A stretch of DNA of 63,930 nucleotides, counting the filler, from Squatina squatina (Eukaryota): assembly GCA_031763465.1 (NCBI GenBank). It is 4 parts of 4 records of this genome, joined end to end, with 100 filler letters (N's around TTAATTAATTAA, not from the genome) between each part and the next. Parts side by side here need not be neighbours in the genome. Positions count along the whole stretch, not along the records: positions 1 to 22,632 come from JARFOE010000194.1; 3 more parts are not named here. The stretch is one strand, 5' to 3'. The notes under the pieces are model-generated. The model was not told the DNA's origin. It did not search any database and saw only the letters and a list, made by a program, of their open reading frames with translations. A program made the translations under genes and the position numbers. Shown in pieces: positions 6,084-53,769 of the stretch (position 1 is the first letter of the stretch; every line of letters starts with the position of its first letter).

Positions 6084-6239
6084 NNNNNNNNNNNNNNNNN
6101 NNNNNNNNNNNNNNNNNNNNNNNNNNNNNNNNNNNNNNNNNNNNNNNNNNNNNNNNNNNNNNNNNNNNNNNNNNNNNNNNNNNAAAGTTGTGCGCAGCGA
6201 ACAATCCTTTTATATTCCGACGAACCCTAACCTTGTTGA

Positions 6240-6500
6240 CGTGTATCGCGATTTCAATGATTTGCATTTTCGCTGTCCAATGAGGAGACAGCTGATACAG
6301 GCGCCAGTTCTAAAAAAAGAAAGACTGGGAATCGCAGTGGCCAATGGTTGTCGGCACTAGTCGGAAGGGGCGGGTTCTCGTGTCAGTTGATCCCGCAGCA
6401 CGAACTGACGTAAATCAACACAAAGGCACGTGGTGTGGGTGGCTGCTGGTCATTGGTGGGGAGTGGGTTTGCTGGTTGTGCGCTTACGGCGTGGATTCGG
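6240..6500. promoter_or_regulatory. TATA-less CpG-rich promoter upstream of KDM6A
   Basis: Local CpG enrichment with octamer ATTTGCAT (6260), CCAAT (6277, 6341), reverse CCAAT (6452), ETS core CGGAAG (6362), GC box GGGGCGGG (6367), CRE half-site TGACGT (6406) and E-box CACGTG (6427), about 270-500 nt before the KDM6A ATG. Confidence 0.75.
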
Positions 6501-6603
6501 TGTGACACAATTACAACTTTCTGCTTTGAAGTTTTTTCTCTTTTTTCTAATATCATTTCAATGCTGTTTTAATTTTTCTAAAAAATAAGGACTCCAGCAG
6601 CGC

Positions 6604-6738
6604 ATGGTAGAAAGGAGCAAGAGCTTGAAGGATGTGAAAGAAACAACAAAAAAGTCCACGGAAATAATAAAGAATAATAAAAATAAATTGCAAACATTTT
6701 TTTTCATCTCTGTCTGTAACCCCATGAAATCCTGTTGA
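6604..6738 (+). other. Upstream ORF (44 aa) in frame with KDM6A, ending in the ancestral start MKSC followed by TGA
   Basis: ATG 6604 is open to TGA 6736-6738: MVERSKSLKDVKETTKKSTEIIKNNKNKLQTFFFISVCNPMKSC*. The internal ATG 6724 is the canonical KDM6A start. Transcription of this stretch is not shown. Confidence 0.55.
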
Positions 6739-6765
6739 GTATCATTCGGTGATGAGGAAAAGAAA

Positions 6766-6851
6766 ATGGCGGCGGGAAAACCGAGTGAAATTGAGGATGA
6801 CTTTCCAACTCTGACGCCCCAGGAGAGAGACTCTATTGCAACTCTCGATAG
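6766..6851 (+). CDS. KDM6A: Lysine demethylase 6A (UTX), coding exon 1 from the second ATG
   Basis: MAAGKPSEIEDDFPTLTPQERDSIATLD(S), preceded in frame by VSFGDEEKK as in vertebrate KDM6A. Strong Kozak context aaaATGG. Donor GT at 6852. Confidence 0.9.
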
Positions 6852-6960
6852 GTTAGAAAATTCTGCAAGTTTTGTGTTGTGTTTTTGATTTAGTTTTAGT
6901 GTTTGTGCATAAATTAAAACCGATTTTAACGTATGTCATCTGTCTGTCGCTATCGCACAG

Positions 6961-7024
6961 CCGACTGTTTGGATTTCTGAAGGTTCATGAAGATGGCGCC
7001 AGAACGAAGGCCTTGTTAATAAAG
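6961..7024 (+). CDS. KDM6A: KDM6A coding exon 2
   Basis: 64-nt AG..GT exon encoding (S)RLFGFLKVHEDGARTKALLIK. Intron 1 is 109 nt. Confidence 0.95.
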
Positions 7025-8875
7025 GTAAGAGCTGAGAGAGACCTGCCTTTTTTGCATTTTTATCTATGTGTAGTAATAACAAACTTCTGCAATAGCCGCT
7101 TTCGAACAATAAAGCAAGGTTTGAGAAAGCCTTCCCACTTTACATAGGGTAGGCTCATTGAGTGATTTCATATGTATAATAACTTGAGAAGCAATGGTGC
7201 ATATGAACAGANNNNNNNNNNNNNNNNNNNNNNNNNNNNNNNNNNNNNNNNNNNNNNNNNNNNNNNNNNNNNNNNNNNNNNNNNNNNNNNNNNNNNNNNN
7301 NNNNNNNNNNNNNNNNNNNNNNNNNNNNNNNNNNNNNNNNNNNNNNNNNNNNNNNNNNNNNNNNNNNNNNNNNNNNNNNNNNNNNNNNNNNNNNNNNNNN
7401 NNNNNNNNNNNNNNNNNNNNNNNNNNNNNNNNNNNNNNNNNNNNNNNNNNNNNNNNNNNNNNNNNNNNNNNNNNNNNNNNNNNNNNNNNNNNNNNNNNNN
7501 NNNTGACCTGGAATCTGAACTTTGTTGTGTAAACGAAATTTACTTATTGAAGTGCAAAAAATAGGCACGTTGACGAGATTGTTTATGCGCTTTTAAGAAA
7601 AATGCACAATGTGATTCTCTCTCTCTCTCAACCTGTAGCACCAAGCAGTAAATGTAAAACATAATGAAATGGCTGCTATACCATAGCGTCTGTGTGAAAT
7701 TGTATTAAACATTTATTTTAAGTCCGGTATACATTTATTGGATGCAATTGCTGAAATGACAGCGGACCACATGTGTTCCAGGAAAACTTTTATATAGAAA
7801 TGGGCATTTGCAAGAGTCTGATTATTTGCACTGCAGTATACACGCGTTTTAAAATTAATTTTGTAATTTGATAGTTTTTGTATACATTGTGAAGTTTATT
7901 AATGTTGAATATTTCCGGAGTGTTCGATCTATCCTGTTTTTGATTACATACGTGAAAGGTTTCTTTCCGAGAAGAACTGCGTCTGTTTGTGTTTTTAATT
8001 GGGTGGTAGAGGTAAAAACCTAGTTTATGTAAGTGTTGTAATACTCTGTCCGGCATGTTTCTACTGAGCTATAATGGCTTCCATTAGTTCGAATTTTAGA
8101 TAAATCGCTTGTTTGCTTAATTCATGTTTTGTCCAAATACATTTTTGTAACGTTTTGATTGATAAGACATCACTCATTGTTTCTTAATGCATATTTATCA
8201 TTTTAAAAGTGAATATCAAGCTTTAATTCCCTTACTGGACAGTACTAAACCCTTTATTGAGTATCACTTCATTTAATTACAGCATAATGTAATGTCATAA
8301 CTCATTGCTTTTAGATTGTTCTAATTAGCTTTCCAACTTGTCATATGGCGAGACTATAAACAAGTAGTTAACTGTCAGTTGCATAGTTGTAAGTAAAAAT
8401 TGGCAGATTTGTAGACTGGACACCAAGGATTAAGGTCTAGTTGGAAACATTTGACCGCATATGTTTGTCTTGTGTAATCAAAATGCTTTCGATAGGATTC
8501 TATGAATCTTTATTGTGGATCATCACATTGCACCCATACCTGACTAGTCTATTCTCAACTAGAGACAGATACAAAACTTCCATAACCCTGGTACTTGTTT
8601 CAGTTAACAGAAAATGGGTTGGGAAAGAGTAGTGAAGTTCCTATGTAGCTCAGTGAGCTTATGTAGTATTACAGACCAACAAGGTCCCAAGTTTGATCTT
8701 GAATTTGTGCTAAACACACTGCTGATCTTAGCTCAGGTGGTGGTAGGTGTTCGACAAATGTGCGCAGTGAGAAATGACAAAAATAGTTCTGCTTTTGTTA
8801 CAAGGCTCACTAATCTCTAAATGAATGCATTCTGCCACTCATTGCTACTATAAGGAGGCCTGTATACAACGCCCA

Positions 8876-16798: not shown

Positions 16799-16907
16799 GC
16801 TATTCACTGCTTTGAGGCGGTAATCAAGAAGTGTGAGGGAAAAGTTGACCCTGAATTGTTTTGCCAGCTTGGTCATTTCAACCTCTTGTTGGAGGATTAT
16901 CCAAAAG
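16799..16907 (+). CDS. KDM6A: KDM6A coding exon 3 (TPR region)
   Basis: 109-nt AG..GT exon encoding [36 protein letters not shown]. Phase fits exon 2. Confidence 0.95.
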
Positions 16908-17766: not shown

Positions 17767-17985
<219 letters not shown>

Positions 17986-20045: not shown

Positions 20046-20139
20046 AGAAAGTACCGTGCTGCAAAGGAAGCCTATGAACAACTTTTGCAAACAGAGAATC
20101 TTTCTGCACAAGTGAAAGCAAATATACTGCAGCAGCTAG
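20046..20139 (+). CDS. KDM6A: KDM6A internal TPR exon (human exon 9 equivalent)
   Basis: 94-nt AG..GT exon encoding [31 protein letters not shown](G). The JmjC exons are not in this window. Confidence 0.95.
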
Positions 20140-22632: not shown

Positions 22633-22732
22633 NNNNNNNNNNNNNNNNNNNNNNNNNNNNNNNNNNNNNNNNNNNNTTAATTAATTAANNNNNNNNNNNN
22701 NNNNNNNNNNNNNNNNNNNNNNNNNNNNNNNN
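22633..22732. other. Artificial scaffold-concatenation linker (N44-TTAATTAATTAA-N44)
   Basis: Palindromic six-frame-stop 12-mer at 22677-22688 inside exactly 100 nt. Gene content changes across it. Confidence 0.95.
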
Positions 22733-22976: not shown

Positions 22977-23087
22977 GTAAGAACGATTTTACTCAAGGAA
23001 TGATTGGTTTAAATAAGCACAAGCATTGAATAGTCATCTACTTTTCCTGTAATGTTTCACAATTTTTTTAAATATTTTTTTAAACAG

Positions 23088-23325
23088 GGCTCTAAATGAG
23101 AGCAACCATCAAAAACTTGAAAACAGTCCAGCAACAGAAAATGCCAGTGAAGAGAATAACACTACACCTTCAAGAGTGGGAGAGCAACTAGATTCTGCTG
23201 ACAACTTGGAGACCGAAGTCTCTTACCAGGACATGCCATCCTGTCCAATCCCTGTAGCATTAATAAAGGAAAACTCCCAGGATCTAGATACTGAGACCAA
23301 AAATAGAGAGTCTGAGCTATGTTAG
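23088..23325 (+). CDS. ZNF462: ZNF462-like, last coding exon
   Basis: Follows a 111-nt GT-AG intron in compatible phase: (M)ALNESNHQKLENSPATEN...DTETKNRESELC*. The GMALN junction matches ZNF462. Stop TAG at 23323-23325. Confidence 0.75.
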
Positions 23326-36485: not shown

Positions 36486-36585
36486 NNNNNNNNNNNNNNN
36501 NNNNNNNNNNNNNNNNNNNNNNNNNNNNNTTAATTAATTAANNNNNNNNNNNNNNNNNNNNNNNNNNNNNNNNNNNNNNNNNNNN
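36486..36585. other. Artificial scaffold-concatenation linker
   Basis: TTAATTAATTAA at 36530-36541 flanked by 44 N on each side. Confidence 0.95.
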
Positions 36586-39945: not shown

Positions 39946-40064
<119 letters not shown>

Positions 40065-40920
40065 NNNNNNNNNNNNNNNNNNNNNNNNNNNNNNNNNNNN
40101 NNNNNNNNNNNNNNNNNNNNNNNNNNNNNNNNNNNNNNNNNNNNNNNNNNNNNNNNNNNNNNNNTAAACGCCGGCATGGACTGGTTGGGCCAGTCGTATA
40201 TCCTATCTAATCCTGTGTAATCTGTACCTCACATTGTTACAAATTTGATATACATGTAAAACAACTTGGGCATTTCTGAGCTGCAACCTGAACCTGATGA
40301 GCATTCCCCAGCCTGCAAAGCTCCTGACTAAACAATTAAACCGTGTTACCTTGGGCTATGTTTGCTTAGTGATTTGAGTTTCTGATTTTAAGGGGACAGG
40401 CTAACTGAAACATAGCTCCACCTTAGCAGCAGACAGGACAATCCATGGCACAACACTCCTGTTATAAGTGTGTATACTGTGAGCAATATCAGGAGATTTA
40501 AATGTCTAAAAAATCTCTCCACCCTGAAAAATTTACATTTATGTCTCACCGTTTTTTGAAGCCAATTTTACCAGTGACATGAATCCTTGTTGAAGACTTT
40601 CTGAAAATCCAAACATAACAGCCACTCTTCTGCCCACCATATCAGTAATGACTCTTTCCTGAATCCATGATGTACTTTAATGATCAGCTTTTATCTCCCA
40701 GATTTCTCAAAATTTAGTATACCTCGATATCCCCTCAGGCTCCTCTGTTCACCCTTTGTCCTACTTTCTCCCTATCCCTCCTACGCTTGTTTGGAGTCCA
40801 AGTCTCCTGCTCCAGTATAAATAGACAACAGCACGTAATGACGCATCGCGTTCACCTAGCTCAAGATATAGCTCTAGCTAATGTACAACGTACCAAGTCA
40901 CATCACAACATCCCACGTAC

Positions 40921-41096
40921 TTGCGTGTCTTCACTTCCTCCAGTTCTTTGGTGAGCTTTTCGCTTTTCTCCATTGACTCATGCAGCCTGCGTCTCAGGTC
41001 GCTGATTTCCTCTTGCGCCTCAGACTTAATATCATTTGCGATGACAACCGCAGTCTGGAGGTCGGCCTGAAACTGCCGCCATTCAGCTGACTCTTC
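40921..41096 (-). CDS. SPECC1L: Cytospin-A coiled-coil exon
   Basis: 176-nt AG..GT exon encoding [58 protein letters not shown](K). Confidence 0.95.
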
Positions 41097-41236
41097 CTAT
41101 TTAAAAAAATATATTTTGTTCATGTAAAAGCAGATGNNNNNNNNNNNNNNNNNNNNNNNNNNNNNNNNNNNNNNNNNNNNNNNNNNNNNNNNNNNNNNNN
41201 NNNNNNNNNNNNNNNNNNNNNNNNNNNNNNNNNNNN

Positions 41237-41620
41237 GACCCGTTTATTCCTACTCTTTGCTTCCTGTCTGCCAACCAATTCTCTATCCACATCAATACTG
41301 AACCCCCAATACCGTGTGCTTTAAGCTTGGAGGAAGATGGAGTGATCAACCGTGTCAAAGGCTGCAGACAAGTCGAGAAGGACGAGGAGGGACAGATTAC
41401 CTTTGTCACAGTCACAAAGGATGTCATTTGTGACTCTCATGAGAGCCGCTTTGGTACTGTGGCAGGGGCGGAAATCTGATTGGATGAATTCAAACATGGA
41501 GTTCCAGGAAAGATAGGCACGGGTTTGGAAGGTGACAACATGTTCAAGGACTTTGGAGAGGAAAGGGAGGTTGGAGATGGGGTGGTAGTTTGCAGGGGCG
41601 GTGGGGGGATAAGGGGTTTT
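41237..41620 (-). mobile_element. L2-type RT fragment fused to a CR1-type RT fragment
   Basis: NYHPISNLPFLSKVLE...LLDLSAAFDTVDH (L2, 41327-41620) directly followed by LKAHGIGGSVLMWIENWLADRKQRVGING (CR1, 41237-41325). Confidence 0.85.
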
Positions 41621-42046
41621 TTTTTGAGGGGAGAGTGATGAAGAAAAATCTGCAATCCTACCACACTCCAAAGCACAATATGTCTGTCAACTGTATCGCT
41701 GGGTCAAATCTGGTCAGACATGAGTGAAAACTCTCTGAGCATGTGATGATGCTGCCATGGCAATGTGATGAAGTGCTGAATCCAGCCTTTGCAGGAGCAA
41801 TGGATAACTCGCATATCAATCAACAGTTTCAGGTTAGGAATACTTGCACAGAGTGCTCACTGACGGGTGAGATATCCATTACCTTCTATACCAAATTTAA
41901 GCACTAACACGAGCCAACAGAGTACACTTTTGTATTTAAAACTCAATGTAGATATAGTTCACATAACTGGCAAACATTCGTAGAAATCTCTTTTGCTGGA
42001 TTCCCATAAAAGTGAATTTTATTCACTATTTTTACAACCATCATAC

Positions 42047-43136
42047 CTTAGCTAGGGTATCCTGTAGCCGATTAGCATCATTGCGGGTATGGGCCAGTTC
42101 CTCCTGGAGGTTGTTGTACAAAGCCTCGATTTTCTCTTTGTCCAGGCGCGTGGTCTCCAACAGTTCTTGTAAATCTGACTTATCGCCTGCATTGTGGAAA
42201 GCATACAACTCTGCAACCTTCTGTTTCTCGTGTTCTAACAGAGCCTTGAACCTGTTCAGCTCAATCTGATCATTTGCAACAGTTGCTTTATATTCTTCTA
42301 ACACTCCAGCAAGTGCTGTTTTGGCTTTTTGCTCAGACTCCATGATCCGCTCCATTTGGTGGTTACGCTCTTTCAGAGCGCCTATCAATTCCTGAGCATC
42401 CTTGTTGTCTTGCTCTGCCATTTTTAGGGTGTTGCTTAAATGCTGCTGCACTCCAAGAAGTTGCTCACGTTCAAAACGTGCATTTTCAGCAAGGTCCATA
42501 TATCGCTGCTCTAGTTCCATGTACCGGCCACTTTTTACATCTTCGTCTAGTACGTAAGAAATGTGGTGCTCATCCAGCAAGGAGCGAAAGTACTCATTCT
42601 GTCGACTGAAGTGCTCCAATTTATCACTTTGCTGGCACAAGGAGTCCATCAGAATGACCTTTTCTTCCCCTAATCTCTCATTTTCAGAATTCAGCTCCTG
42701 TGTTATCTGCTGAAGGTCTGCAAGTTCCTGAAGAGTAGCTTGGAGCTCCTCTGCTGTGCTGTGTTGGTTTTCTTCCATCTGGTGAATGCGCTCCGTTAAA
42801 CAAGCCACTGACACTTCACTTACATTCCCACTGCTCCCTTTCCTTGACCGCTCCCTGCTTGGTGCACCCTCAGATTCAGAAGATGATGAGGGAGCATCTA
42901 ATGCATCATCACTGGAAGTAAGCGGCTGGTAGACCTCACTGGATTCACTGTCCAAGTTATCTAGAGAATTGCTGCGGTTGTCAGTTAATGTGTTCTCATC
43001 CTGGCTCAGGAGGTCTTCCATAGAACCAGGTGCTGATCCCTCCACTGAGGATGTTAAGGTACCACCATCACTCTGGTTGCCAGCAGCTACCTCGGGACTT
43101 GAGGACTGAAAGCCAAAAAGTTTCTCTGCGCTATCT
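42047..43136 (-). CDS. SPECC1L: Cytospin-A large coiled-coil exon (5' part in gap)
   Basis: Open frame from the gap edge ([11 protein letters not shown]...[13 protein letters not shown]) through [28 protein letters not shown] to RLQDTLAK, then donor GTATGA. Corresponds to ORF 42041..43045. Confidence 0.97.
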
Positions 43137-50737: not shown

Positions 50738-50837
50738 NNNNNNNNNNNNNNNNNNNNNNNNNNNNNNNNNNNNNNNNNNNNTTAATTAATTAANNNNNNN
50801 NNNNNNNNNNNNNNNNNNNNNNNNNNNNNNNNNNNNN
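50738..50837. other. Artificial scaffold-concatenation linker
   Basis: TTAATTAATTAA at 50782-50793 flanked by 44 N on each side. Confidence 0.95.
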
Positions 50838-51895: not shown

Positions 51896-53242
51896 GCTGT
51901 TTACAAAACATTAACATCTCACTTGCTTCTCAATCTTAAACAGTTTATTTGGATGAGTTCCACAGACTGTAGGCCCAACACTTCTCCACAGGGAAGGAAA
52001 GCTGGTGACATGTCACCTCAGGCCACTTACAGAACTTCTGATGAGCAGCTATGCTGCAGAATTGGCAGCAGCATGCTGAGAACCTGCCCTTTTGTTTGTG
52101 GACTCGGAGAGTGTGGTGTCAATAGGTAGGATTCTAAAGCAGGAGAGAAAATTACTCTTACTTAAAATAACAGATGCAGTCTGTTCCACTCTGGTTAAAG
52201 AGAATTTATTTTATAAAGCCAAATTTCCCTCTCTTCAATTTGGTTAATTTTCATTTTGTTGTACAATTTTGATGATTGTATGTAAATTTAAAATCTTTAA
52301 GCATCTCTTCACCTTTGCTATTGGAAATCTGCTAAGCTTTCACAAGGGGTCAGTTTGACACTTCATTATTCATTATGTCAAAGTTCATTAAATTGTGCCA
52401 CTTTCGATATAGAGCAATATGTTTCTAAACAAGCTTTTGTACTAAAGAATACATAATCTGCACCTTCTTAAACCCATGACCCCGGTCAAATATATGTATA
52501 TTGTGGAAAAACATTAATCATCTTGAAGTATAATGAACTGTTTAAAATTAACATGCAAAATAATTCATGCATATACACTGGGAAAAACTTAAATTATCTA
52601 CATACTTCTTCGCACGTGTAAGAAGACAAACTTCAAATAGTTAGCACAGCCTTGTCACTGTTGTTTAAAGCGGAATATACTTGTGTGTTAATCGCCTGCT
52701 GGGTGGAGGTAGGTAACCTGTCCTTTGATCAAAGGGACAAGTGATGGTTTTACTTTACATCCTGTCTCTCTTTAAACTGACCCATTGCTGCAGGGATAAA
52801 TTTCAGGATTTCTCTTTATACTGAGTATTTTGTTACTTATTGCATACCATCACTCAAGGCATCAGGGTATAATCCAAACACGGTTTGGGGTCCTTTCACA
52901 TGATGGCCATCAAAATGTTACCAATTCACATCAACCCTAAAGGATTTCAAATGTTGAAAAGGGACTAGCTCCTTTCGTTGGCCAAATTGTAAAAGCTTGT
53001 TCAGAAATTTGTTTCTCTTTTGTTTACATTTCCAACATCTATGTTTACTAGTGCAATGTTTAAATCTTGAGTAACAATCAAGTAGGTTAAGCATTTATTG
53101 CTGAAGGTTTCAAAGAGTTTAGAGAATAAAATGTTAAAAGCTACTCCTGCAGTAAAACTGCACACTCCCTAATCTGATAATGACTGGTATAAACGGGCCA
53201 GCCAACATGGCAATGAATTCTTGGAACCCAGTTCATAATTAC

Positions 53243-53769
53243 AGCAGAGGCAGAGGGACGGTGGGGGAATGGAGCAGAGACAGAGGGACACGGGGGGAAT
53301 GGAGCAGAGACAGAGGGACAGGGCGGGAATGGAGCAGAGACAGAGAGACACGGCGGGAATGGAGCACAGACAGAGGGACAGGGGGGGAATGGAGCAGAGA
53401 GAGAGGGACGGGGAGGAAATGGAGCAGAGACAGAGGGACAGTGGGGGGAATGGAGCAGAGACAGAGGGACAGGGAATGGAGCAGAGACAGAGGGACAAAG
53501 AATGGAGCAGAGACAGAGGGACGGGCGGGGAATGGAGCAGAGACAGAGGGACGGGCGGGGAATGGAGCAGAGACAGAGGAACAGGGAATGGAGCAGAGGC
53601 AGAGAGACAGGCAATGGAGCAGAGATAGAGGGACAGGGCGGGGAATGGAGCAGAGACAGAGGGACAGGGAATGGAGCAGAGACAGAGGGACAGGGAATGG
53701 AGCAGAGACAGAGGGACGGGCGGGGAATGGAGCAGAGACAGAGGAACAGGGAATGGAGCAGAGGCAGAG
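53243..53769. repeat. Purine-rich minisatellite (about 25-31 bp units), continuing into a gap
   Basis: About 18 tandem copies of GGAATGGAGCAGAGACAGAGGGAC with a variable short G-rich linker. Confidence 0.95.

What the first reader, a model, noticed from the sequence alone, without database searches (positions are those of the whole stretch)
6604..6780. Canonical KDM6A/UTX start is cut off by an in-frame TGA and becomes a uORF
Seen: ATG AAA TCC TGT TGA GTA TCA TTC GGT GAT GAG GAA AAG AAA ATG GCG GCG (6724-6774), which reads MKSC*VSFGDEEKKMAA. The frame is also open back to ATG 6604, giving a 44-aa uORF that stops 27 nt before ATG 6766. ATG 6724 has weak Kozak context (cccATGA) and ATG 6766 has strong context (aaaATGG). 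Known: vertebrate KDM6A starts MKSCGVS...FGDEEKKMAAGK, so Gly5 (GGA) is one base from TGA. Inference: this lineage may make only the shorter MAAGK isoform by leaky scanning or reinitiation, with the old N-terminus reused as a translational dosage control on a dosage-sensitive demethylase. Residues either side of the stop are still conserved, which fits a recent change, nucleotide-level constraint or recoding.
Basis: partly seen in the sequence, partly recalled or inferred. Interest (0 to 1): 0.72.

Follow-up and report, generated by a model that had tools for sequence, protein, structure and literature searches.

The report
Lone early stop in shark KDM6A
A stop codon sits at codon 5 of a shark's KDM6A histone-demethylase gene in a very fragmented assembly; it is likely a sequencing slip or one animal's variant rather than a new control switch, and if real a second start ten codons later would likely still give an almost complete protein.

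Summary
The TGA, the three ATGs and their contexts are as described. The locus is an elasmobranch KDM6A with an intact CpG-island promoter and otherwise clean exons. All 12 cartilaginous-fish species whose models show this segment have Gly5, so the stop is private so far; no close relative was seen. The scaffold is a gappy mosaic: 41 gaps, with SPECC1L exons 20 kb away that lie on another contig in 9 of 9 references. Reads were not examined, so miscall versus real allele stays open. For a real allele: only 9 of 77 possible stops fall in this rescuable stretch, and there is no excess of other private changes. With the weak Met1 it reproduces the 'obligatory poor-context start' published for mammalian KDM6A (PMC8892498), which suggests Met1 is the working start. 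Verdict: miscall or single-animal allele 0.62, fixed lineage change 0.27, pseudogene 0.08, recoding 0.03. The scan's notes held nothing on KDM6A.

The parts
6184..6603 (+). CpG-island promoter and probable 5' leader of KDM6A: CCAAT boxes at 6277, 6341, 6452; GC box 6368; CRE half-sites 6237, 6406; E-box 6427; no TATA match
   Evidence: CpG observed/expected 1.05; the contig 6184-7211 has 0.90, highest of 37 contigs of 500 bases or more, against 0.37 for the window. Transcription start not mapped.
6604..6738 (+). 44-codon upstream ORF in the main frame, ended by the TGA; without the stop it would be a 40-residue N-terminal extension
   Evidence: Cetorhinus and Carcharodon models start at the equivalent place; identity 5 of 14 in the first part (frame differs) and 24 or 23 of 26 in the rest, which looks like leader DNA rather than a conserved peptide (inference).
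6632..6637 (+). Start-stop element (ATG followed at once by TGA), A at -3
6724..6738 (+). Canonical Met1 in poor context, reduced to a 4-codon ORF in this assembly
6736..6738 (+). TGA at the place of Gly5; 552 and 473 bases from the two ends of its 1028-base contig
   Evidence: Not checked in reads.
6752..6814 (+). Out-of-frame ATG (G at -3) and 20-codon ORF that overlaps Met15; likely decoy for ribosomes that pass Met1
   Evidence: Formed by the Asp-Glu codons of a Gly-Asp-Glu motif kept in 134 of 134 models that have the upstream segment (protein level only).
6766..6851 (+). Met15 in strong context to the GT donor of coding exon 1
6961..7024 (+). KDM6A coding exon 2, AG and GT intact
   Evidence: 22 of 22 residues match P0017; borders
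16799..16907 (+). KDM6A exon for residues 65-100; carries one private change, Ser71 to Ala
17799..17919 (+). KDM6A exon for residues 138-177
   Evidence: 40 of 40 residues match P0017; borders
20046..20139 (+). KDM6A exon for residues 208-238; last KDM6A exon found in the window

Best explanation
The TGA at codon 5 is likely a private one-base change, either a consensus miscall or an allele of the one sequenced animal, in a KDM6A gene that otherwise looks functional. The surrounding layout is probably ancient: a poor-context Met1, then an out-of-frame ATG in better context, then a strong in-frame Met15. Shown: positions, contexts, Gly5 in 12 other species, intact promoter and exons, mosaic scaffold. 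Inferred: in the normal allele Met1 makes full-length protein at a rate set by start-codon stringency, while ribosomes that pass it are split between the decoy ORF and Met15. An animal carrying the stop would lose the full-length form from that allele and keep a form short of 14 residues, mostly by leaky scanning. That would make the allele mild enough to exist, but it is not an evolved switch.
For: 20 of 23 chondrichthyan proteins (12 species from chimaera to rays) carry an identical 14-residue segment with Gly5; 2 are short isoforms without exon 1 and 1 starts at Met15. Among 134 models with the segment, position 5 is G in 118, R in 13, S in 3. The other 13 residues of the segment are unchanged in the window, so there is no decay after the stop. 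Human KDM6A is in Dataset S2 of PMC8892498, conserved obligatory poor-context starts, and the window meets both defining features, which points to Met1 as the working start. Assembly: 42 contigs, median 1.2 kb; residues 101-137, 178-207 and everything after 239 are absent; SPECC1L exons follow 20 kb later although the two genes lie on contigs of different length in 9 of 9 reference species.
Against: The stop lies in the one stretch where it can be rescued: 9 of 77 stop-making single changes in the KDM6A exons seen (12%), or 9 of 237 with the SPECC1L exon (4%), fall between Met1 and Met15. A blind error would usually land elsewhere; this favours a real allele but does not separate rare from fixed, and the finding was picked for this very position. 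No excess of errors is visible: 3 private changes in about 1260 non-synonymous sites against a mean of 1.8 in 9 references, P = 0.26. The site is in the middle of its contig. Only 15 of 75 members of the main cluster were displayed, and the window's residue pattern fits none of them, so a stop shared within an unsampled shark group would have been missed. One older S. torazame model starts at Met15 (P0007); its DNA was not seen. One search listed the best 120 of 1847 hits by score over residues 1-140, which favours models that keep the segment.
Confidence: 0.62

Rival explanations
1. The stop is fixed in this species or a small shark clade. KDM6A is then made only from Met15, by leaky scanning past the poor Met1 and the decoy ATG, with some reinitiation after the 4-codon ORF. 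The old start has become a sink, and the response to start-codon stringency would be inverted: higher stringency would give more protein, not less.
For: The stop sits in the rescuable 12% of stop-making changes. Met15 has a strong context and is kept in 135 of 137 models. The lost 14 residues lie before every Pfam match, the earliest listed stretch starting at residue 96. No excess of private changes. Stops close to the start escape decay and are rescued more readily (PMC10275272, passages). Close relatives are unsampled.
Against: No species seen shares it. The segment is identical in 12 species and kept in all 114 ray-finned fish models listed. The decoy ATG 13 nt after the stop would take part of the scanning ribosomes. 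The 27-nt gap to Met15 is shorter than the 39-42 nt and 79-140 nt optima quoted for two mRNAs in PMC10275272 section 13.
Confidence: 0.27
2. The locus is a recently disabled or truncated copy (duplicate or translocation breakpoint next to SPECC1L), with a working KDM6A elsewhere in the genome.
For: No KDM6A exon is found after residue 239, and SPECC1L follows. Two private changes at invariant columns in 171 codons, at the top of the 0-2 range of 11 elasmobranch references.
Against: No other stop or frameshift in 171 codons; 5 of 5 donors GT and 4 of 4 acceptors AG. The CpG island is intact. SPECC1L itself is present as scattered exons on small contigs with others missing, as expected from scaffolding of fragments. 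The rest of the genome was not available.
Confidence: 0.08
3. The UGA is recoded (readthrough, selenocysteine or RNA editing) so that full-length protein is still made.
For: Flanking residues are unchanged, and position 5 tolerates R and S in ray-finned fish.
Against: The base after the stop is G, not the C of the leaky UGA-CUAG context (motif recalled). Orthologues have Gly, not Cys, at this position. Nothing is shared with other species. The 3' UTR is not in the window, so a SECIS element could not be sought.
Confidence: 0.03

Closest known systems
Conserved 'obligatory poor context' start of mammalian Kdm6a/Kdm6b (Ivanov et al. 2022, PMC8892498; passages, methods section 11 and Dataset S1-S3 rows read)
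   Same: [quoted passage not shown] The paper lists human KDM6A in this class.
   Different: The paper scored placental mammals; here the layout is seen in one shark assembly. In this assembly Met1 no longer opens the main frame. In the parts read, the paper lists KDM6A and reports no test of it.
Start-proximal premature stops rescued by a downstream in-frame AUG, such as ATRX and ATP7A (review PMC10275272; passages and section 13 read)
   Same: A stop within a few codons of the start, an in-frame AUG soon after, and an N-terminally shortened but nearly whole protein predicted.
   Different: Those are proven patient alleles with protein evidence. Here the allele is unproven, and an out-of-frame AUG lies between the stop and the rescuing AUG.
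Conserved inhibitory uORFs in poor context in Hox leaders (PMC8892498, passages)
   Same: A poor-context upstream AUG in front of a stronger main AUG would make output rise with stringency.
   Different: Hox uORFs are conserved from fish to mammals and were tested in reporters. This stop is seen in one assembly and is absent from 12 related species.

Membership tests
KDM6A/UTX orthologue | N-terminal and TPR exons match KDM6A | tested here: met
   Five exons match P0017 at 92-100%
KDM6A/UTX orthologue | JmjC, helical and GATA-like domains in the same gene | not testable with these tools
   No exon after residue 239 in the window; no whole genome held
Obligatory poor-context start (PMC8892498) | U or C at -3 and A, C or U at +4 of the annotated start | tested here: met
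   ATG 6724 has C and A (definition)
Obligatory poor-context start (PMC8892498) | [quoted passage not shown] | tested here: met
   ATG 6752, G at -3, frame +1
Obligatory poor-context start (PMC8892498) | The poor AUG opens the main ORF | tested here: not met
   TGA at codon 5 in this assembly; met in the 12 orthologous species at protein level
Obligatory poor-context start (PMC8892498) | Context conserved at DNA level across species | not testable with these tools
   No orthologous shark DNA was obtained; only the Gly-Asp-Glu motif could be counted (134 of 134)
Conserved inhibitory uORF | Start and stop shared between species | tested here: not met
   12 of 12 species showing the segment have Gly5; close relatives unsampled
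Conserved inhibitory uORF | Lies in the mature mRNA and represses the main ORF | not testable with these tools
   Transcription start unmapped; no reporter or ribosome data
Start-proximal stop rescued by downstream AUG | Stop near the start with an in-frame AUG ahead of the functional domains | tested here: met
Start-proximal stop rescued by downstream AUG | The allele is real in reads and transcripts | not tested
   No reads were laid
Pseudogene | Further disabling lesions or promoter decay | tested here: not met
   None in 171 codons, splice sites intact, CpG o/e 0.90; only 171 of 1452 codons are visible
Programmed stop-codon readthrough | Leaky context (C after UGA; motif recalled) and conservation of the stop | tested here: not met
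   G follows the stop; stop not shared

The most novel reading that the evidence does not exclude
A shark lineage has fixed a stop at codon 5 of KDM6A, turning a start-codon stringency sensor shared by jawed vertebrates upside down: the ancient weak start now feeds a 4-codon dead end, all demethylase comes from Met15, and output rises rather than falls when start selection tightens. It would also be a natural proof that the conserved N-terminal peptide is dispensable.
Probability: 0.25. Interest if true: 0.6.

Novelty: new member of a known kind. Interest (0 to 1): 0.25.

Why it matters
If the stop is a miscall or a rare allele, it matters little. The lasting point is then that the weak-start-plus-decoy layout reported for mammalian KDM6A is also present in a shark, which suggests it dates from early jawed vertebrates (one assembly, DNA of other sharks not seen). 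If the stop is fixed, it is a natural experiment on whether Met15 supports a dosage-sensitive demethylase, which bears on how early KDM6A nonsense or start-loss variants in people should be read. No paper on a KDM6A Met15 isoform or on the shark start turned up in the listings; these cover only the held library and I saw listings only.

Tried and rejected
Whole-genome check: no genome held, so a second KDM6A copy could not be sought. Laying reads gave no data, so the base at 6736 is untested in this animal and in those runs. Exact look-up of the 44-residue upstream peptide: not in the collection; HMMER search with it: 0 hits among 1.84 billion representatives; both uninformative for so short an ORF. 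Pfam on that peptide: 0 families. Repeated cluster listings showed the same 15 of 75 members, so further shark species could not be read. PDB searches did not name the ORFs at 43135-42044 and 23053-23322; the first was then named. A high general error rate was considered and not supported (upper bound about 0.7% per site, far too loose to exclude one miscall). The idea that the window is the S. torazame locus of P0007 was rejected: exon 3 differs at two residues. No structure prediction was run, since the 14 lost residues lie outside all domains.

Full report
Observation. ATG 6604 opens a 44-codon frame, ATG 6724 gives four codons and then TGA at 6736-6738, and ATG 6766 follows in frame 27 nt later. 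By the definition in PMC8892498, ATG 6724 is in poor context and ATG 6766 is not. Two elements were missed: an out-of-frame ATG at 6752 with G at -3, whose 20-codon ORF overlaps ATG 6766, and a start-stop at 6632.

What the locus is. A search with exon 1, the stop read as X, found only cartilaginous-fish KDM6A (7 clusters among 12 candidates). Five exons map to S. canicula KDM6A: residues 1-42, 43-64, 65-100, 138-177 and 208-238. All 5 donors are GT and all 4 acceptors AG, with no other stop or frameshift in 171 codons. The contig that holds exon 1 has the highest CpG ratio of 37 contigs and carries CCAAT, GC-box, CRE and E-box motifs, as expected of a live promoter. The organism is an elasmobranch. 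Its exon 3 pattern matches none of the listed galeomorph or ray models, and its cytospin-A exon is nearest to Heptranchias (4 differences) and two lamniforms (5 each) among 15 references, so its closest relatives may be missing from the KDM6A comparison.

Is the stop shared? Of 23 chondrichthyan proteins, 20 from 12 species carry the same 14 residues with Gly5, 2 are short isoforms without exon 1, and 1 partial S. torazame model starts at Met15. That model may reflect a gene finder's choice; its DNA was not seen. All 114 ray-finned fish models listed keep a longer version of the segment. Over 134 models position 5 is G in 118, R in 13 and S in 3, and the Gly-Asp-Glu motif before the second Met is present in all 134. 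Limits: 15 of 75 cluster members were displayed, and one search listed 120 of 1847 hits ranked in a way that favours models with the segment.

The 44-codon ORF. Cetorhinus and Carcharodon models begin 40 residues upstream, at the place of ATG 6604. The first 14 residues agree at only 5, and the lamniform residues appear in another frame of the window; the last 26 agree at 24 and 23. This reads as slowly changing leader DNA with compensating indels rather than a conserved peptide (inference). The upstream ATG therefore predates the stop, and whether it lies in the mRNA is unknown.

Assembly quality. The window is 42 contigs, median 1.2 kb, with 41 gaps. The exons for residues 101-137 and 178-207 are absent across gaps, and nothing after residue 239 is found. 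Three SPECC1L (cytospin-A) exons lie on the minus strand at 39997-43135. In 9 of 9 reference species with both genes, the contigs reported for KDM6A and cytospin-A differ in length, so the scaffold most likely joins pieces of two chromosomes. Unchecked notes on other pieces of this genome also describe a gappy mosaic. That lowers trust in the assembly, but it concerns joins more than bases. At base level the window has 3 private changes at otherwise invariant columns in about 1260 non-synonymous sites, against a mean of 1.8 in 9 references (P = 0.26), so no excess of errors shows; the bound of about 0.7% cannot exclude one miscall.

Position argument. Of 77 single-base changes that would create a stop in the KDM6A exons seen, 9 lie between Met1 and Met15; with the SPECC1L exon it is 9 of 237. 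A stop that lands exactly where it can be rescued is what a tolerated real allele would look like. The argument is weakened because the finding was selected for this position, and it does not separate a rare allele from a fixed one.

Reads. The run search listed 24 runs, none with half of the sampled words, and no reads were laid. The base at 6736 is therefore untested.

Mechanism. [quoted passage not shown] The window shows both features. That the mammalian out-of-frame AUG is the same Asp-Glu one is my inference. In the normal allele, full-length protein would depend on how often the weak Met1 is used, and ribosomes that pass it would be divided between the decoy ORF and Met15. With the stop, ribosomes starting at Met1 would end after four codons. 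Start-proximal stops tend to escape decay and allow reinitiation (PMC10275272, passages), but 27 nt is shorter than the optima quoted there for two mRNAs (section 13), so leaky scanning is the likelier route to Met15. The product would lack 14 residues that lie before every Pfam match. The response to stringency would invert. All of this is inferred; none was measured.

Weighing. A segment unchanged in 12 species, an obligatory-start layout, no decay around the stop and a fragmentary assembly make a private change the best reading (0.62, miscall and single-animal allele taken together because only reads can part them). A fixed change stays open at 0.27 because of the position of the stop, the clean exons and the unsampled relatives. 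A dead copy (0.08) and recoding (0.03) have little support.

Novelty. Early stops rescued by a downstream AUG and the weak KDM6A start are both known kinds. No paper on the shark start or on a Met15 isoform appeared in the listings, and the scan's notes held nothing on KDM6A. Supplements of bioRxiv preprints could not be seen, and initiation-site tables there may bear on use of the second Met. Interest 0.25; 0.6 if the stop proves fixed.

Noticed in passing
window 43135-42044, 41096-40893, 40062-39997 (minus strand): Three exons of SPECC1L (cytospin-A), 99% identical to shark orthologues, with intervening exons missing. The gene is on a different contig from KDM6A in 9 of 9 reference species, so the scaffold is likely a mis-join.
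   Followed up: yes
window 6752-6814: Out-of-frame ATG in non-poor context between Met1 and Met15; with the weak Met1 it matches the layout published for mammalian KDM6A and suggests it is as old as jawed vertebrates.
   Followed up: partly
window 6632-6637: Start-stop element in the leader. The Gly-Cys-Glu residues in the two lamniform extensions hint that the same bases exist there (inference).
   Followed up: partly
window 23053-23322 (+): 90-codon acidic open frame on its own contig that looks like an exon of a third gene; no significant Pfam or PDB match, unnamed.
   Followed up: partly
window 16817-16819: Private Ser71-to-Ala change in KDM6A exon 3 at a column that is Ser in all 21 chondrichthyan proteins covering it.
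   Followed up: partly
P0007 (S. torazame partial model): The only one of 135 models with the second Met that starts there; worth checking whether that genome also has a lesion before Met15 or whether the gene finder chose the stronger ATG.
   Followed up: no
window 22633-22732, 36486-36585, 50738-50837: Three identical gap patterns of 44 N, 12 bases, 44 N; origin not examined.
   Followed up: no
window 53144-53769: Purine-rich tandem repeat that gives long open frames on both strands.
   Followed up: no
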